Positions 30,332 to 34,680 of a DNA stretch of 64,000 bases are shown in pieces. The stretch covers positions 1-64,000 of the IMG/VR virus record IMGVR_UViG_3300005611_000007. One strand, written 5' to 3'. The position numbers were made by a program, and so were the translations under genes. Positions within the stretch are counted from its first letter, which is position 1; every line of letters starts with the position of its first letter. The notes under the pieces were generated by a model. That model was given only the letters and a program-made list of their open reading frames with translations. It was not told where the DNA came from and ran no database searches. The DNA is from a virus (taxonomy: Duplodnaviria; Caudoviricetes).

Positions 30332-30360
30332 TGTTATATCCTTTGATTGTTATAAGTGAT

Positions 30361-30690
30361 TGGGCCCGTTATATGACAGGGTGGAACCCATACCCCGTGA
30401 CTACAAGTCGATTAAGCCGCTAGGCGGATATCCTCGAAGTGATTGTCATTTGCAACATTAAAGTTAGCATTTATAGTTTTGGTCCGATACGCTGGTACCA
30501 TGGCGTCTACCTCGATTTGATCTTTACTACGTCAGTCGAACCTAATATCACCCCCCGCATAAGCATACCACAACAAACTCTTTCGTGTCTAGCAAGGTCT
30601 CATTACTAGAGACGGTGATATGCTTATGGTGGAGGTGACGGGTACTGCCCCCGTGTCCTGAACGTTTATTCTATCTCCTCTCAGACGGTA
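30361..30690 (-). ncRNA. ssrA: Two-piece (circularly permuted) tmRNA, alphaproteobacterial type
   Basis: On the minus strand the acceptor piece ends GACACGGGGGCAGTACCCGTCACCTCCACCA (3' end at 30627). A self-pairing intervening segment (TAAGCATATCAC...GTGGTATGCTTA) follows, then the coding piece starts GGGGGTGA (~30555). Tag frame (ANFNV)ANDNHFEDIRLAA* at 30412-30468; TATAAATA upstream at 30698-30705. Outer ends approximate. Confidence 0.92.
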
Positions 30691-30830
30691 GATTTAATAT
30701 TTATATTATTCATCTCTAGACTCTTGACATAATCAAATTCATCTGCAAGCCGGTCCAGATATTCTTCGTATTCCTCACGAATCTTAGGATATCGAAACGC
30801 TTCTTCATACAACTCAATAAGTTCAAACAT
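30681..30830 (-). CDS. Small hypothetical early protein (49 aa)
   Basis: MFELIELYEEAFRYPKIREEYEEYLDRLADEFDYVKSLE..., directly behind the promoter at 30861-30889. Confidence 0.55.
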   Translation of the reverse strand: MFELIELYEEAFRYPKIREEYEEYLDRLADEFDYVKSLEMNNINIKSTV

Positions 30831-30860: not shown

Positions 30861-30889
30861 ATAATACAACAGAAATGAATTAATGTCAA
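30861..30889 (-). promoter_or_regulatory. Sigma70-type early promoter, class A-like leader
   Basis: TTGACA-17-TATTAT, then ataaaaATGATGAAAC. Confidence 0.8.
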
Positions 30890-31039
30890 CAAAAAAGTTG
30901 AAGAATTTGCCTCATCAACTAGAACATCCTTTCTATAAAAAAATGATGGCCACGATTTTTCCCCTCTTTCAGTACTCCATCTGCCATCCCTGCCGTACCT
31001 CACATAAATGAGCCTCAGCAGCACGGTGTTATTTATATT

Positions 31040-31135
31040 TGGTACGCCCACCAGGATTCGAACCTGGACCGCTCCCTAATCTGGGGACCATATGCCGGAT
31101 ATAAGCCGGGTGTTCTACCGTTAAACTATGGGCGC
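31040..31135 (-). tRNA. Atypical tRNA, anticodon UAU (Ile), with long variable arm
   Basis: GCGCCCA/TGGGCGT acceptor stem plus ACCA; D-arm; CCGG-CTTATAT-CCGG anticodon arm; ~26-nt variable region; CCAGG-TTCGAAT-CCTGG T-arm. Confidence 0.75.
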
Positions 31136-31140
31136 ATATT

Positions 31141-31217
31141 TGGCGATCTCGGCAGGACTCGAACCTGCAACCTAGAGCTTAGAAGGCTCTTGCTCTATCC
31201 AATTGAGCTACGAGACC
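31141..31217 (-). tRNA. tRNA-Arg(UCU)
   Basis: GGTCTCG...AGAGC-CTTCTAA-GCTCT...GGTTCGAGTCC...GCCA; canonical cloverleaf. Confidence 0.95.
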
Positions 31218-31302
31218 AATTAACAGTTCCAACACAATTTCGAAATTGCGTATGCAAAGGGTAAAAATGATAACAAAACTAATATTACCATATACCAATT
31301 AA

Positions 31303-31446
31303 TCAAGGCAATACTCTCTTTACGACTACATGTCCCATCTCAAATGGTAGAGTTACCATATCATAAGCAATACCAATAGGTGTCAATGGTGTTACAGCAC
31401 AAGCTGAAACCAAAAGACCAAGACTGATAACGATTACCTTTTTCAT
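31303..31446 (-). CDS. Small lipoprotein (47 aa)
   Basis: MKKVIVISLGLLVSAC lipobox; start overlaps the purS stop (ATGA). Confidence 0.6.
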   Translation of the reverse strand: MKKVIVISLGLLVSACAVTPLTPIGIAYDMVTLPFEMGHVVVKRVLP

Positions 31447-31664
31447 AGTTCCTCAATCACATAATTTTCCATTACTTCATTATATACAGACTTAGCAATG
31501 TCGTCAACTAAATTTTCATCACATTCAATATGGATAGTCTTACCGATTCTAACATTTTCAACCATATCATATCCCATAGATCGTAAAGCATTTGCTACTG
31601 CATCGCCTTGCATATCTTTGATACCGGGGCGAAGAGTTGTGGTGATCCTATATTTCTTTATCAT
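31443..31664 (-). CDS. purS: Phosphoribosylformylglycinamidine synthase subunit PurS
   Basis: LRPGIKDMQGDAV..AL..MGY..VENVRIGK.I...N.VMENY pattern. Confidence 0.85.
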   Translation of the reverse strand: MIKKYRITTTLRPGIKDMQGDAVANALRSMGYDMVENVRIGKTIHIECDENLVDDIAKSVYNEVMENYVIEEL

Positions 31665-31962
31665 TTAGTTTTTCTCTAACCCAGTTAATCTTATAGTCAG
31701 TGGACCACTCGCTAAGATAAGCATTGTCTTTGTCGAACAGATCCAACATTTCTTCTTCAGTGACAAGAGTGCTGTCTACAATATATTCGCCCATATATTT
31801 TTGAGAAAACTCTTCACATTCTTCCATACTCACTGTATCTTTTGCCCATTCTTCCGGCCAACAAGGTTCATCAGGATTCAATTTCTGCAAATCATCTTTA
31901 TGCATCACATAACGCATACGATGAGATGAAATACAGGTTACGACAACATAATCTTTACTCAT
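31648..31962 (-). CDS. Hypothetical protein
   Basis: Packed ORF; VTCISSHRMRYV...EEFSQKYMGE motif familiar from phages. Confidence 0.6.
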   Translation of the reverse strand: MSKDYVVVTCISSHRMRYVMHKDDLQKLNPDEPCWPEEWAKDTVSMEECEEFSQKYMGEYIVDSTLVTEEEMLDLFDKDNAYLSEWSTDYKINWVREKLNDKEI

Positions 31963-32004
31963 TTAATAATCCATTCCTAACCAGTCTGTTTCTTCTGGCA
32001 TCAT

Positions 32005-32457
32005 TTAAACATCTTTCTTCTCCACCATTTCACCGTTACGAACAACGTAGTGTTTAACTTCACACATACTTGACTTAATATAAGCACGACCTCCGTCTAT
32101 CATATTGCCGTTCTCAAACCGTTTATAATCATGGCGATGTGCGCTGTACTGTAGATTGCCATCACCATCTTCAACAAGCCCAAACTCTACAGATTCAATT
32201 CGATCTGCATTGGTAATCATAATTTGTGGCTTTTGTGTTACTCGTGTATCAACCATATTGTAATATAATCCAAAGTAATGGTTACCAAACTCAGGATGTG
32301 GAGTCTCTCTGTAAAAGATATCCATTGCCCATGCCTCATAGCCCAGAGCACTTGTACACACATAGGTAACAGGAACACCATCTTTCTTAGTATAGTGTTC
32401 ACAAATCTTGTCAGTATCAAATAGTGGTTCGTGTTTAATCATCTTCTCCTCACTCAT
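32005..32457 (-). CDS. Hypothetical protein
   Basis: Packed ORF; HPEFGNHYFG and YSAHRHDY...IDGGRAY motifs. Confidence 0.65.
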   Translation of the reverse strand: MSEEKMIKHEPLFDTDKICEHYTKKDGVPVTYVCTSALGYEAWAMDIFYRETPHPEFGNHYFGLYYNMVDTRVTQKPQIMITNADRIESVEFGLVEDGDGNLQYSAHRHDYKRFENGNMIDGGRAYIKSSMCEVKHYVVRNGEMVEKKDV

Positions 32458-32665
32458 CTACTACCCACGCATAATTGGTTGTAATCCAGTCCTCTAGGCA
32501 GTCTTCAAACGACCAGTTTTTGTCCACTTCTTCTTTACCAAACTTTTTACACATCTTCTCATACCACCAAGGATAGTATTCTTTTCTGATATCATCCTCT
32601 GATACTGTTACAATAGACGTTCCTTCTCCTGGGTATGCCAGTTCATCATAAGAAAAATATCTCAT
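32450..32665 (-). CDS. Hypothetical protein
   Basis: Overlapping start/stop with neighbours. Confidence 0.6.
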   Translation of the reverse strand: MRYFSYDELAYPGEGTSIVTVSEDDIRKEYYPWWYEKMCKKFGKEEVDKNWSFEDCLEDWITTNYAWVVDE

Positions 32666-33051
32666 CCTCGCCTCTTTCCAGTGGTTGGATCATTAGCGTC
32701 TTCTTTAGATAGTACCTGTAGACCACCTTTGTTATACGCTTGACCGACAACATATTGAGAACTATACATCAGTTTTGTCTCTCTGTCAACTGATTTATTC
32801 GTTTGAATCGGTACAATTTTGTTACTGAGAGGAATTTGGTCGGGGATGCTGGATTCGAACCAACGACCTGACGCTCCCAAAGCGCCCGCTCTACCAGACT
32901 GAGCCAATCCCCGTTTATCTGCATGAACACCCATCTTACGAAGCCATTTATCATGTTCGATATCGGCTTGTAATTGACGTTTGGTCTTTTTAGATTTACG
33001 TTTACGAGTGGATGTTGTTGTCATCCACGGTCCCACAAGATGCATACTCAT
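32662..33051 (-). CDS. Hypothetical basic protein whose reading frame runs through tRNA-Pro
   Basis: GGAG RBS upstream; MSMHLVGPWMTT...EHDKWLRKMGV and QAYNKGGLQVL motifs flank the tRNA; stop overlaps the next ATG. Confidence 0.7.
   Translation of the reverse strand: MSMHLVGPWMTTTSTRKRKSKKTKRQLQADIEHDKWLRKMGVHADKRGLAQSGRAGALGASGRWFESSIPDQIPLSNKIVPIQTNKSVDRETKLMYSSQYVVGQAYNKGGLQVLSKEDANDPTTGKRRG
32837..32913 (-). tRNA. tRNA-Pro(UGG), nested in a CDS
   Basis: CGGGGATTGGCTCAGTCTGGTAGAGCGGGCGC-TTTGGGA-GCGTCAGGTCGTTGGTTCGAATCCAGCATCCCCGACCA; C1:G72 and A73 as in bacterial tRNA-Pro. Confidence 0.92.
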
Positions 33052-33065
33052 ATCATCTCCAAAAA

Positions 33066-33139
33066 TGGTGCTCCCACACAGAATCGAACTGCGAATTGAT
33101 GATTACAAATCAACTGTTATACCGTTTAACTATAGGAGC
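33066..33139 (-). tRNA. tRNA-Thr(UGU)
   Basis: GCTCCTA/TGGGAGC acceptor stem, TTTGTAA loop, TTCGA T-loop, encoded CCA. Confidence 0.88.
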
Positions 33140-33143
33140 GTAT

Positions 33144-33218
33144 TGGCTCCTGGAGAGGGATTCGAACCCCCGACCGGGCGGTTAACAGCCGCCAGCTCTA
33201 CCACTGAGCTATCCAGGA
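33144..33218 (-). tRNA. tRNA-Asn(GUU)
   Basis: TCCTGGA/TCCAGGA stem, GGCGG-CTGTTAA-CCGCC anticodon arm, GCCA end. Confidence 0.95.
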
Positions 33219-33227
33219 ATAAATTCA

Positions 33228-33317
33228 TTAAGAGAACGCTACCATGTACATTAGGATAAGTGCCATCAGACAAGAGAAAGCAGTAAACTCGACCAACATC
33301 TTCAGAGCATTCAACAT
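33228..33317 (-). CDS. 29-aa hydrophobic membrane peptide
   Basis: MLNALKMLVEFTAFSCLMALILMYMVAFS*; AAGGAG RBS and its own promoter. Confidence 0.55.
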   Translation of the reverse strand: MLNALKMLVEFTAFSCLMALILMYMVAFS

Positions 33318-33346
33318 CGTTTCTCTCCTTCGTTCATCATGTTTAT

Positions 33347-33375
33347 ATCATACCAAAAGAATTAATTTTTGTCAA
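33347..33375 (-). promoter_or_regulatory. Sigma70-type early promoter, class A leader
   Basis: TTGACA-17-TATGAT; spacer and leader nearly identical to 21372-21400. Confidence 0.88.
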
Positions 33376-33592
33376 CCAATATCTCAAAATCTGGATCATT
33401 TTTTAAAGCGATCCAACGATGGTCACCCGTGGGGCTAAACACCATTGCAAAAGGTCCTGGCAGCGAACGGTGTTTGGTTGTTTGAATACGGTCGCGAATC
33501 TCGCTGATCCAAAACTCCGTACCAAATTGCTGGATGCGATTCTTACCGTGTTTGCTCTTACCTTTGAGCTGGATTTGATCACCTATTTGCAT
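33362..33592 (-). CDS. Hypothetical early protein
   Basis: AAGGAG RBS before the ATG at 33592; LKGKSKHGKNRI...RWI...DPDF motif. Confidence 0.65.
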   Translation of the reverse strand: MQIGDQIQLKGKSKHGKNRIQQFGTEFWISEIRDRIQTTKHRSLPGPFAMVFSPTGDHRWIALKNDPDFEILVDKN

Positions 33593-33636
33593 AGTATCTC
33601 TCCTTTGCTTGTTCCGTTGTCTCACTCACTATAATC

Positions 33637-33665
33637 ATTATCTTACAGTGGAGATTAAATGTCAA
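33637..33665 (-). promoter_or_regulatory. Sigma70-type early promoter, class B leader
   Basis: TTGACA-tttaatctcc...-GATAAT (17-nt spacer), then gattatAGTGAGTGAGACA. Confidence 0.8.
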
Positions 33666-33671
33666 GCAAAA

Positions 33672-33950
33672 TTATTCATATTCCCGAAAATTTTTGATAG
33701 ACCATTTTTGAACGACCGGCGATCCATCGGCGCCTTCATCTACGACCACATACGCTACAGTCTTCTTAACAAGACCAATACGAGTTTCATCGTTACCAAC
33801 GAAAATCTTGTGGGGATATTCATCAGCAAACCAATCATCATTCTCAGCAAACTCAAACAAGTGATCATACTCCTTTTCTCGGAACTGACCCAGAACTTTG
33901 GAGTCAATTCCAATCGTGCGACGGTCGTTGGTATAAGGAGCAAACGCCAT
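33672..33950 (-). CDS. Hypothetical early protein
   Basis: GGAGG RBS before the ATG at 33950. Confidence 0.65.
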   Translation of the reverse strand: MAFAPYTNDRRTIGIDSKVLGQFREKEYDHLFEFAENDDWFADEYPHKIFVGNDETRIGLVKKTVAYVVVDEGADGSPVVQKWSIKNFREYE

Positions 33951-33951
33951 A

Positions 33952-34167
33952 TCAATCCTCCCACTTGACAGTGAAACCAACCTTCGCCTCAGCATTCCGC
34001 TTGGCGATGTCGAAGGTTTCGTACATCTCTACGAAATTTTTGCCAATCCAAAGTTCGTATTCATCATTAATATTTTCAATGATGTCAACTTCACTTACGG
34101 CATTGGTAGCCATCCAAGCGGTCTTGATATCGATGGCTTTGGTGTCGTATTTGGCAAACTTCATCAT
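33952..34167 (-). CDS. Hypothetical early protein
   Basis: First gene behind the class B promoter at 34202-34229. Confidence 0.6.
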   Translation of the reverse strand: MMKFAKYDTKAIDIKTAWMATNAVSEVDIIENINDEYELWIGKNFVEMYETFDIAKRNAEAKVGFTVKWED

Positions 34168-34201
34168 GTTTCTGTCTCTCTCTGTCTCACTCACTATAAT
34201 C

Positions 34202-34229
34202 ATTATACTCGATGGAGATTAAAAGTCAA
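34202..34229 (-). promoter_or_regulatory. Sigma70-type early promoter, class B leader
   Basis: TTGACT-16-TATAAT, then gattatAGTGAGTGAGACAGAGAGAGACAGAAACATG. Confidence 0.8.
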
Positions 34230-34237
34230 CAGTTTTT

Positions 34238-34618
34238 TTATGCAATCTTCAAATTAAGTTCGTCCACCTCATCAAAACCAAAACTTGCAACCATGTGGTA
34301 CATGCCGTTCTCATCCATGATCACATCACCAACACTCAGGCTGTGCATGGGAAGAAACCGTTCGATGTTCTCTTCTGGACCCATATTACCAACATGGAAC
34401 ACACCATCAAGGCTATTAGCGGTGATGTTGCTGACATGCTCATAGTAACCTTTCTCAAAGGCTTCCTTGACCAGATGTCCAACAGGTTTACCAAACGACA
34501 TATCAATCTTCATACGCAGCACGTTCTTAGGAACAGCGCCGTGATCACCGGCGGCGTTGATGGTGTCAACTTCTGCATCGGTGAGGTTGATCTGGAAAAC
34601 TTTGTAAATGCCTGTCAT
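34238..34618 (-). CDS. YodL-like domain protein, paralog 1
   Basis: YKVFQI...LDGVF..GN...MHSLSVGDVI...MVASFGF. Confidence 0.65.
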   Translation of the reverse strand: MTGIYKVFQINLTDAEVDTINAAGDHGAVPKNVLRMKIDMSFGKPVGHLVKEAFEKGYYEHVSNITANSLDGVFHVGNMGPEENIERFLPMHSLSVGDVIMDENGMYHMVASFGFDEVDELNLKIA

Positions 34619-34652
34619 GTTTCTGTCTCTCTCTGTCTCATTCACTATAATC

Positions 34653-34680
34653 ATTATATACGGTAGAGATTAAATGTCAA
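34653..34680 (-). promoter_or_regulatory. Sigma70-type early promoter, class B leader
   Basis: TTGACA-16-TATAAT, then gattatAGTGAATGAGACAGAGAGAGACAGAAACATG. Confidence 0.82.

What the first reader, a model, noticed from the sequence alone, without database searches (positions are those of the whole stretch)
32662..33051. Intact tRNA-Pro nested inside an uninterrupted protein-coding gene on the same strand
Seen: the 129-aa ORF has an RBS and a stop coupled to the next gene, and reads without stops through the whole 77-nt tRNA-Pro(UGG) at 32837-32913 (peptide RGLAQSGRAGALGASGRWFESSIPD). I recall the flanks (MSMHL..PWMTT, EHDKWLRKMGV, AYNKGGLQV) as parts of one aquatic-phage protein family, so both halves look genuinely coding. 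Inference: dual-coding DNA. RNase P and 3' processing would cut the mRNA and leave a non-stop 5' fragment, which is a tmRNA substrate, and this phage encodes tmRNA 2 kb away. Translation and tRNA maturation would compete, a possible regulatory coupling.
Basis: partly seen in the sequence, partly recalled or inferred. Interest (0 to 1): 0.85.

Follow-up and report, generated by a model that had tools for sequence, protein, structure and literature searches.

The report
tRNA gene nested inside phage gene
A working-looking proline tRNA gene lies in frame inside the flexible middle of a small conserved marine-phage protein gene, and relatives carry seven kinds of swappable tRNAs at the same spot with the reading frame almost never broken, so selection keeps this DNA as both tRNA and protein code.

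Summary
ORF 33051-32662 (- strand, 129 aa) has an RBS, an ATGA overlap with the next gene, and reads through a complete tRNA-Pro(UGG) at 32913-32837 that encodes its own CCA.

It is not a chance ORF.
- Across 315 related loci (214 distinct ORF DNAs), ascertained separately by the N end and by the C end, 75 distinct ORFs hold 90 nested tRNAs. All are on the sense strand. They are Pro, Trp, Arg, Ala, Ile, Met or Thr, singly or in pairs.
- 74 of those 75 ORFs are intact.
- 139 relatives have no tRNA and are contiguous.
- Both flanks evolve as protein (dN/dS 0.16-0.24). The tRNA segment evolves as RNA (14 of 23 pairs compensatory, no third-position bias).

Cassettes are swapped between divergent host genes, and one tRNA-less linker is a decayed tRNA-Trp.

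The protein has a basic N-terminal helix, a disordered linker and a C-terminal hairpin. It is related to PHROG 27048, and its function is unknown.

Expression could not be tested.

This scan reported nested tRNAs in marine-phage genes before on other genomes; at least e1-5876011 is this same gene family. In print I found only selC nested in selB (Mukai 2021).

The parts
33347..33375 (-). sigma-70-like promoter match (TTGACA-17-TATGAT, TG-extended) upstream of tRNA-Asn; likely start of the transcript that carries tRNA-Asn, tRNA-Thr and the ORF
   Evidence: consensus scan only; function not shown
33144..33218 (-). free-standing tRNA-Asn(GTT)
33066..33139 (-). free-standing tRNA-Thr(TGT); its 3' end lies 14 nt before the ORF start codon
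33057..33060 (-). Shine-Dalgarno GGAG, 5 nt before the ATG
   Evidence: read from the sequence
32662..33051 (-). host ORF, 129 aa plus stop; small phage protein family related to PHROG 27048
32914..33051 (-). conserved N-terminal domain (aa 1-46): MHLxGP..TTT, a basic KRK stretch, and the helix EHxKWLRKMG (pLDDT about 95)
   Evidence: (dN/dS 0.16-0.24)
32837..32913 (-). tRNA-Pro(UGG), 77 nt with encoded CCA; read in frame as RGLAQSGRAGALGASGRWFESSIPD(Q)
   Evidence: cloverleaf, 14 of 23 pairs with compensatory changes
32758..32836 (-). variable linker after the tRNA (aa 72-98), predicted disordered
32761..32789 (-). promoter-like TTGACA-17-TATAGT inside the ORF, just downstream of the tRNA
   Evidence: consensus match only
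32665..32757 (-). conserved C-terminal domain (aa 99-129): YVVGQAYNKGGLQVLS..DPxTGKRR, predicted beta hairpin plus short helix. The last codons contain the Shine-Dalgarno sequence (AAGAGG) of the next gene
   Evidence: (dN/dS 0.16)
32662..32665 (-). ATGA stop/start overlap with the downstream 71-aa ORF (32450-32665)
   Evidence: The next gene overlaps the stop or lies within 15 nt in 127 of 158 relatives

Best explanation
This is one real, translated phage gene whose disordered middle serves as the housing for a real tRNA gene.

Shown:
- The protein has a basic N-terminal helix domain and a C-terminal hairpin domain, both under purifying selection.
- Between them lies a hypervariable, unstructured linker.
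- In the window, 77 nt of that linker are a complete sense-strand tRNA-Pro(UGG) with encoded CCA.
- In relatives the same position holds Trp, Arg, Ala, Ile, Met, Thr or Pro tRNAs, singly or in pairs, or none.
- The ORF always uses a stop-free frame of the tRNA.

Inferred: one early transcript (tRNA-Asn, tRNA-Thr, ORF with tRNA-Pro, downstream genes) serves as both mRNA and pre-tRNA. While ribosomes cross it, it yields the full-length protein with a tRNA-encoded, functionless linker peptide. Once free of ribosomes, the tRNA folds and is cut out by RNase P and 3' processing, which ends that mRNA.

Inferred reason for the arrangement: these genomes are very tightly packed, with stop/start overlaps. 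A tolerant linker is therefore the cheapest place to put 75-160 nt of RNA gene without losing the C-terminal domain or the translation that runs on to the next gene. Only in-frame, stop-free insertions survive. Cassettes are gained, exchanged and lost by recombination, and unused ones decay in place into ordinary linker.
For: - Homologues: 224 homologues of similar length, and 1547 clusters at 50% identity in a profile search.
- Frame kept: 80 of 80 IMG/VR loci found by N-terminal patterns. All 157 untruncated loci found by C-terminal patterns. 75 of 76 untruncated metagenome loci found by the N-domain alone.
- Totals: 214 distinct ORF DNAs. 75 hold 90 nested tRNAs, all sense strand; 74 are intact.
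- Frame choice: 48 of 69 distinct nested tRNAs have a single stop-free frame, and the ORF uses an open one every time. One tRNA-Trp variant switches to its only open frame. Free-standing tRNAs in the same loci lack any open frame in 12 of 37 cases, against 0 of 69 nested.
- Flanks evolve as protein: dN/dS 0.16 (C), 0.24 and 0.16 (N). Third-position excess in the C flank is 0.21/0.13/0.49, against a flat 0.18/0.17/0.23 in the tRNA segment.
- tRNA constraint: cloverleaf with 14 of 23 pairs compensatory and CCA in all 14 Pro alleles.
- Exchange: the window tRNA-Pro is 96% identical to that of L020, whose flanks are 63%/22% identical. It is 69% identical to that of L008, whose flanks are 95%/100% identical. 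The tRNA complement changes at least 25 times on a 68-row flank tree.
- Decay: the tRNA-less L035 keeps 15 nt of the tRNA-Trp anticodon arm at the same place.
- Structure: the linker is predicted disordered (pLDDT 52-64) between a confident helix and a hairpin.
- Cultured example: Methylophilales phage Melnitz gene 124 holds tRNA-Trp (gene 125).
- Tight packing: the next gene overlaps the stop or lies within 15 nt in 127 of 158 relatives. Pelagimyophage mean intergenic spacing is about 21-25 bp (PMC7029224).
Against: - No expression data. Neither the mature tRNA nor the full-length protein has been observed.
- One locus (L279) has lost the C-domain: the N-domain plus tRNA-Ile ends in a stop and is followed by free tRNA-Arg and tRNA-Gly.
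- 34 of the best 150 cluster representatives in the protein library match only the N part. Some are contig ends or adapter read-through. Several are frameshifts in or after the tRNA (for example P0226 and P0112) that I could not check at the DNA level.
- The packing argument does not explain why this gene in particular is the recurrent host.
- The function of the protein is unknown. There is no Pfam or PDB match, and the BFVD matches are uncharacterised proteins only.
Confidence: 0.8

Rival explanations
1. Regulatory coupling through tmRNA. tRNA excision leaves a non-stop 5' mRNA fragment. The phage's own tmRNA exists to rescue ribosomes from it, and the competition between translation and processing tunes the protein level.
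For: The tmRNA is real and lies 1.9 kb downstream. Melnitz also has both features. Mukai proposed the same non-stop mRNA logic for selC in selB. Processing of a mid-ORF tRNA must create non-stop fragments if it happens at all.
Against: Alpha-type tmRNA is present in 4 of 5 large related contigs whose homologue has no nested tRNA, and in 3 of 5 with one. So it is not associated with nesting. The identity and number of tRNAs change at least 25 times on the tree, which fits poorly with a tuned regulatory switch. The host's own tmRNA would serve equally well.
Confidence: 0.12
2. The protein is a passenger. The ORF is kept open only so that ribosomes cover the transcript (against Rho polarity and decay) and reach the next gene. 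The polypeptide itself has no function.
For: ATGA overlap with the next gene, and tight spacing in 127 of 158 relatives. The last codons double as the next gene's Shine-Dalgarno sequence.
Against: Both domains are conserved at the amino-acid level with dN/dS 0.16-0.24. The family has 139 distinct tRNA-less members and reaches distant phages such as Delftia phage PhiW-14 and Acidovorax phage ACP17.
Confidence: 0.04
3. The tRNA is a dead relic or a mimic. Only the protein matters, and the tRNA-like sequence is merely linker.
For: Linkers tolerate any sequence. A decayed tRNA-Trp remnant does serve as linker in L035.
Against: Rfam score 61.9 bits. The cloverleaf is kept by compensatory changes in 14 of 23 pairs with only one broken cell, and CCA and the anticodon are invariant. 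Variation shows no codon-position bias. When a tRNA is not maintained it decays quickly.
Confidence: 0.03
4. Chance or annotation artefact: two unrelated short ORFs, or none, happen to join across a tRNA.
For: Gene callers often call ORFs over tRNAs.
Against: 74 of 75 distinct tRNA-bearing relatives are intact, across 12 different tRNA complements and three ascertainment schemes. There is no conserved internal start for the C part.
Confidence: 0.01

Closest known systems
selC (tRNA-Sec) nested in the selB ORF of Alphaproteobacteria (Mukai 2021, Int J Mol Sci 22:4605, PMC8124441)
   Same: A complete sense-strand tRNA gene lies inside a protein ORF. The ORF stop overlaps the next gene's start. 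A remnant tRNA is found in relatives that lost it. The proposed model is that tRNA processing and full-length translation are alternatives.
   Different: There it is one fixed tRNA in a C-terminal extension of the very factor that binds that tRNA. Here there are seven isotypes, one or two at a time, exchangeable, placed in mid-gene between two conserved domains of a phage protein with no known tie to tRNA. Neither case is backed by experiments.
Phage tRNA gene clusters with interspersed small ORFs (T4 tRNA region; SegB homing, PMC2330249)
   Same: Phage tRNAs are co-transcribed with small early ORFs and released by host RNases. The tRNA regions are recombination-prone.
   Different: In T4 the tRNAs lie between ORFs, not inside a reading frame. 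No homing endonuclease was seen next to this gene (I did not search for one systematically).
PHROG phrog_27048 (phage protein family, unknown function)
   Same: Relatives with the MHKSN-type C-terminus match it over its full length at E of 1e-12 to 1e-23. They share the N-terminal domain with the window protein.
   Different: The window protein itself gives no PHROG or Pfam hit. Its C-terminus is the AYNKGG variant, and its linker is tRNA-encoded.
Methylophilales phage Melnitz genes 124/125 (MZ577097; Buchholz et al. 2022, PMC9004378)
   Same: Same gene family, with a tRNA-Trp nested in frame. It is a cultured phage-host pair.
   Different: The paper lists the tRNA as gene 125 and does not mention that it lies inside gene 124. 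The isotype and the reading phase differ from the window's.

Membership tests
tRNA (Rfam RF00005) | Covariance-model score above the gathering threshold over the full model | tested here: met
   61.9 bits against 29, model positions 1-71. ARAGORN calls Pro(tgg).
tRNA (Rfam RF00005) | Cloverleaf maintained by compensatory substitutions among homologues | tested here: met
   14 of 23 pairs show double changes, with one broken cell among 14 nested tRNA-Pro alleles.
tRNA (Rfam RF00005) | Processed, CCA-ended, aminoacylated RNA is made | not testable with these tools
   CCA is encoded. No RNA data could be obtained.
Nested tRNA in an ORF (selC-in-selB type, Mukai 2021) | Whole tRNA on the sense strand inside an uninterrupted ORF that is conserved in relatives | tested here: met
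Nested tRNA in an ORF (selC-in-selB type, Mukai 2021) | tRNA remnant in relatives that lack the tRNA | tested here: met
   L035 keeps AGTGATTCCAAACCA of the tRNA-Trp anticodon arm.
Nested tRNA in an ORF (selC-in-selB type, Mukai 2021) | The host protein is the dedicated partner of the nested tRNA, which sits in a C-terminal extension | tested here: not met
   Seven different isotypes occupy the site. The site lies between two conserved domains. No tRNA-related domain was found.
PHROG phrog_27048 | Significant HMM match of the protein itself | tested here: not met
   No family at E up to 0.1 for the window protein.
PHROG phrog_27048 | Homology through intermediates | tested here: met
   L063 and other MHKSN-type members hit phrog_27048 over its full length. 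They align with the window protein along the N-domain and the C-motif. The profile of A2 recovers 1547 clusters.
Two-piece alpha-type tmRNA (RF01849 / RF04321) | Score above the gathering threshold | tested here: met
   100.9 and 111.3 bits.

The most novel reading that the evidence does not exclude
The linker of this gene family is a dedicated docking site for tRNA cassettes in streamlined marine myophages. Phages acquire, swap, stack and shed tRNAs there. Translation through the cassette orders the two uses of the transcript: protein first, then tRNA released from the spent mRNA. This would be a general rule for how very compact phage genomes carry RNA genes inside coding sequence.
Probability: 0.3. 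Interest if true: 0.85.

Novelty: new variant of a known kind. Interest (0 to 1): 0.78.

Why it matters
A tRNA gene and a protein-coding frame are not normally expected to share the same nucleotides on the same strand. The only published bacterial precedent I found is a bioinformatic report of a single case type (selC in selB). Here a whole family shows it: 74 intact distinct examples, seven isotypes and 12 tRNA complements (singles and pairs). There is clear evidence of double selection and of cassette exchange and decay.

- It shows that disordered protein linkers can absorb entire RNA genes.
- It affects annotation, because pipelines either drop the ORF or ignore the overlap.
- It offers a tractable system, phage Melnitz on OM43 strain H5P1, to ask how ribosomes and RNase P share one transcript.
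- It also bears on how abundant ocean phages tune translation in hosts with minimal genomes.

Tried and rejected
The apparently frameshifted database proteins (P0112, P0107, P0226 and others) could not be inspected as DNA.
- Function: no hit in Pfam, in PHROGs for the window protein or in a PDB profile search. The BFVD fold search returned only uncharacterised relatives, and the ESM Atlas only unnamed viral clusters below 0.9.
- tRNA as an intron-like element that is cut out and the halves rejoined: rejected. Excising 77, 76 or 74 nt would shift the frame, and the frame through the tRNA is always open.
- Separate translation of the C-domain from an internal start: rejected, because no conserved Met or Shine-Dalgarno sequence follows the tRNA.
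- A combined C-terminal alignment was too diverse for locus search. I split it into two subfamilies.
- My first motif script missed the AYNKG form; I corrected it.
- tmRNA near the gene by nhmmer: found only in L008, L012 and L013 within 2.5 kb. I replaced this with whole-contig searches.

Full report
OBSERVATION

The window holds a 129-aa ORF at 33051-32662 on the - strand. A complete tRNA-Pro(UGG) lies on the same strand at 32913-32837 (ARAGORN; Rfam 61.9 bits against a gathering score of 29). The tRNA begins at ORF nucleotide 139, which is the first base of codon 47. It is 77 nt long and ends in an encoded ACCA.

A GGAG sits 5 nt before the ATG, in a 14-nt leader that follows tRNA-Thr directly. 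The TGA stop overlaps the ATG of the next ORF as ATGA. A two-piece alpha-type tmRNA lies at 30359-30741. The record is a 126,920-base virus contig with five tRNAs, all in this window, and one of them is nested.

IS THE ORF REAL?

A word-indexed protein search returned 224 relatives of 70-226 aa, down to about 42% identity, and most were full length. Their alignment shows two conserved ends:
- N end: MHLxGP..TTT, a KRK-rich stretch, and EHxKWLRKMG.
- C end: YVVGQAYNKGGLQVLS..DPxTGKRR, or in a second subfamily GIATMHKSNxVPV..AxEIAKMRRG.

The middle is hypervariable. In many members it reads like the translation of a different tRNA, of two tRNAs, or of none.

To avoid the bias of looking only at called proteins, I fetched DNA loci in three ways and scored them by script.
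- (a) IMG/VR loci found by N-terminal peptide patterns: 80 of 80 have one open frame from the N-domain to the C-motif. 55 of them hold one or two tRNAs inside it.
- (b) IMG/VR loci found by C-terminal patterns only: every one of the 157 loci not cut by a contig end has a full-length in-frame ORF. 45 hold nested tRNAs.
- (c) Metagenome contigs found with the first 45 residues only: 75 intact, 4 running off the contig, and 1 broken.

After removing duplicates there are 214 distinct ORF DNAs. 75 of them carry 90 nested tRNAs, all on the sense strand, and 74 of the 75 are intact. The other 139 are tRNA-less and contiguous.

The tRNA complements among the 75 are: Trp 18, Pro 17, Arg 8, Ala 7, Arg+Pro 7, Ile 6, Met 4, Arg+Ala 3, Ala+Thr 2, and one each of Pro+Thr, Trp+Ile and Met+Trp.

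DOUBLE SELECTION

Flanks. Nei-Gojobori dN/dS is 0.16 for the C flank and 0.24 and 0.16 for two N-flank blocks, at pS of about 0.6. Pairwise differences by codon position are 0.21/0.13/0.49 in the C flank. In the tRNA-Pro segment they are a flat 0.18/0.17/0.23. So the flanks evolve as protein and the insert evolves as RNA.

tRNA. The 14 distinct nested tRNA-Pro alleles fold into one cloverleaf. 14 of 23 pairs show compensatory double changes, one cell is broken, and the anticodon loop and CCA are invariant.

Frame choice.
- 48 of 69 distinct nested tRNAs have only one stop-free sense frame, 20 have two and 1 has three.
- The ORF always uses an open frame.
- Each isotype keeps its own phase.
- One tRNA-Trp variant whose usual frame is closed is read in its only open frame.
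- Among 37 distinct free-standing tRNAs in the same loci, 12 have no open frame at all, against 0 of 69 nested ones.

TURNOVER

The window's tRNA-Pro is 96% identical to that of L020, whose flanks are only 63% (N) and 22% (C) identical to the window's. It is only 69% identical to that of L008, whose flanks are 95% and 100% identical. The cassette has therefore been exchanged independently of its host gene.

On a tree of 68 flank-only sequences the tRNA complement needs at least 25 changes, and presence/absence at least 8. The alignment has only 78 columns, so many forks are unresolved. Even so, well-supported small clades mix Arg, Arg+Pro and Ala.

The tRNA-less linker of L035 retains AGTGATTCCAAACCA, the anticodon arm of the tRNA-Trp of its sister loci, at the homologous position. 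The 5' part is deleted and the frame is kept. So tRNAs are also lost by decay in place.

EXCEPTIONS

L279 has the N-domain plus tRNA-Ile, then a stop. Free tRNA-Arg and tRNA-Gly follow, and there is no C-domain in any frame.

A profile search of 1.84 billion cluster representatives found 1547 clusters at E of 0.001 or better. 34 of the best 150 match only the N part. These fall into three groups:
- some end at contig ends;
- two end in adapter-like read-through (for example ..LSLIHI, recognised from memory);
- several are frameshifts inside or just after the tRNA (P0226 is the +1 frame of the Trp form; P0112 departs at the CCA).

I therefore cannot say whether they are assembly errors at a repeated tRNA or real variants. 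The honest statement is that the frame is almost always kept, not that it is never broken.

THE PROTEIN

Pfam and PHROGs give nothing for the window protein. MHKSN-type relatives match phrog_27048 (unknown function) over its full length.

AlphaFold2 with a 117-sequence alignment gives:
- a confident helix at residues 24-40 (pLDDT about 95);
- a C-terminal hairpin plus short helix at residues 100-128 (pLDDT 74-81);
- a low-confidence linker at residues 45-99 (pLDDT 52-64), which includes the tRNA-encoded residues.

There is no PDB sequence match. BFVD returns only uncharacterised relatives.

Cultured phages with the family are Methylophilales phage Melnitz, Delftia phage PhiW-14, Acidovorax phage ACP17, phage C48C1 and Synechococcus phage BUCT-ZZ01. 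In Melnitz, gene 124 (148 aa) contains tRNA-Trp. The paper lists that tRNA as gene 125 without mentioning the nesting.

THE tmRNA IDEA

Alpha-type tmRNA is found in 4 of 5 large related contigs whose homologue has no nested tRNA. It is found in 3 of 5 smaller fragments whose homologue has one. It is a feature of this phage group and is not specifically coupled to nesting. Non-stop fragments would still arise if the tRNA is excised, and any tmRNA would handle them. Nothing singles this out as the reason for the arrangement.

HOW IT MOST LIKELY WORKS

Shown: dual constraint, a tolerant disordered site, sense orientation, tight coupling to the next gene (overlap or a gap of 15 nt or less in 127 of 158 loci), and cassette exchange and decay.

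Inferred:
- One early transcript is both mRNA and pre-tRNA. A promoter-like site lies at 33375-33347, upstream of tRNA-Asn.
- Ribosomes unfold and read the tRNA as linker.
- When the message is no longer covered by ribosomes, the tRNA folds and host RNases release it, which ends the message.
- The in-frame rule follows from the need for the C-domain and for uninterrupted translation in a genome with about 20-bp intergenic spacers (PMC7029224).

Excision and rejoining of the halves is excluded, because 77, 76 and 74 nt are not multiples of three.

COMPARISON AND NOVELTY

The closest published case is selC nested in selB (Mukai 2021). [quoted passage not shown] Full-text searches for nested or embedded tRNA genes, and the pelagimyophage and Melnitz papers I read, turned up no phage case.

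The present case differs in four ways: it sits in mid-gene between two conserved domains, it involves seven isotypes, the cassettes are exchangeable and stackable, and there is no evident tie between the protein and the tRNA.

This scan has reported the same phenomenon on other genomes (for example e1-5876011, e1-5379051 and e1-5337812). Those notes gave me the Mukai reference, which I then read. I redid every count here myself.

I class it as a new variant of a known kind. The evidence for selection is strong, and there is no expression evidence.

Noticed in passing
window 31040-31135 (-); also L064, L065, L068, L279: tRNA-Ile(UAU) of 92-96 nt with an insertion of about 23 nt in the variable region (a long extra arm). 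This is unusual for an isoleucine tRNA. The same long tRNA-Ile is one of the cassettes nested in this gene family.
   Followed up: partly
window 32761-32789 (-): A near-consensus sigma-70-like site (TTGACA-17-TATAGT) lies inside the ORF just after the tRNA. It could drive the downstream genes independently of the ORF transcript.
   Followed up: no
window 30861-34680 (-): A string of 11-12 of 12 matches to TTGACA/TATAAT on the - strand, at 34680, 34229, 33665, 33375, 31507 and 30889. It looks like an early-gene region with a promoter before almost every small gene.
   Followed up: no
window 33952-34203 and 34238-34654 (-): Two neighbouring ORFs share the N-terminus MIIV(S/N)ETERDRNM. Each sits just behind a consensus promoter-like site. 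This may be a repeated promoter-plus-leader module.
   Followed up: no
window 30359-30741 (-): A two-piece (permuted) alpha-type tmRNA in a phage. The same family is found in 7 of 10 related contigs searched, whether or not their homologue holds a tRNA.
   Followed up: partly
L279:1001-1629: The one broken member. The N-domain plus tRNA-Ile ends in a stop, followed by free tRNA-Arg(TCT) and tRNA-Gly(TCC). The C-domain is absent, as if a tRNA array had replaced the 3' half of the gene.
   Followed up: partly
window 32662-32680 (-): The conserved last codons GKRRG (GGAAAGAGGCGAGGATGA) contain the Shine-Dalgarno sequence and start codon of the next gene. Part of the C-terminal conservation may therefore be a second overlapping constraint.
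   Followed up: no
L001-L007 downstream of the ORF: Seven IMG/VR contigs with an ORF 100% identical to the window's show no tmRNA within 2.5 kb downstream, where the window has it. The region just downstream seems to be mosaic among very close relatives.
   Followed up: no
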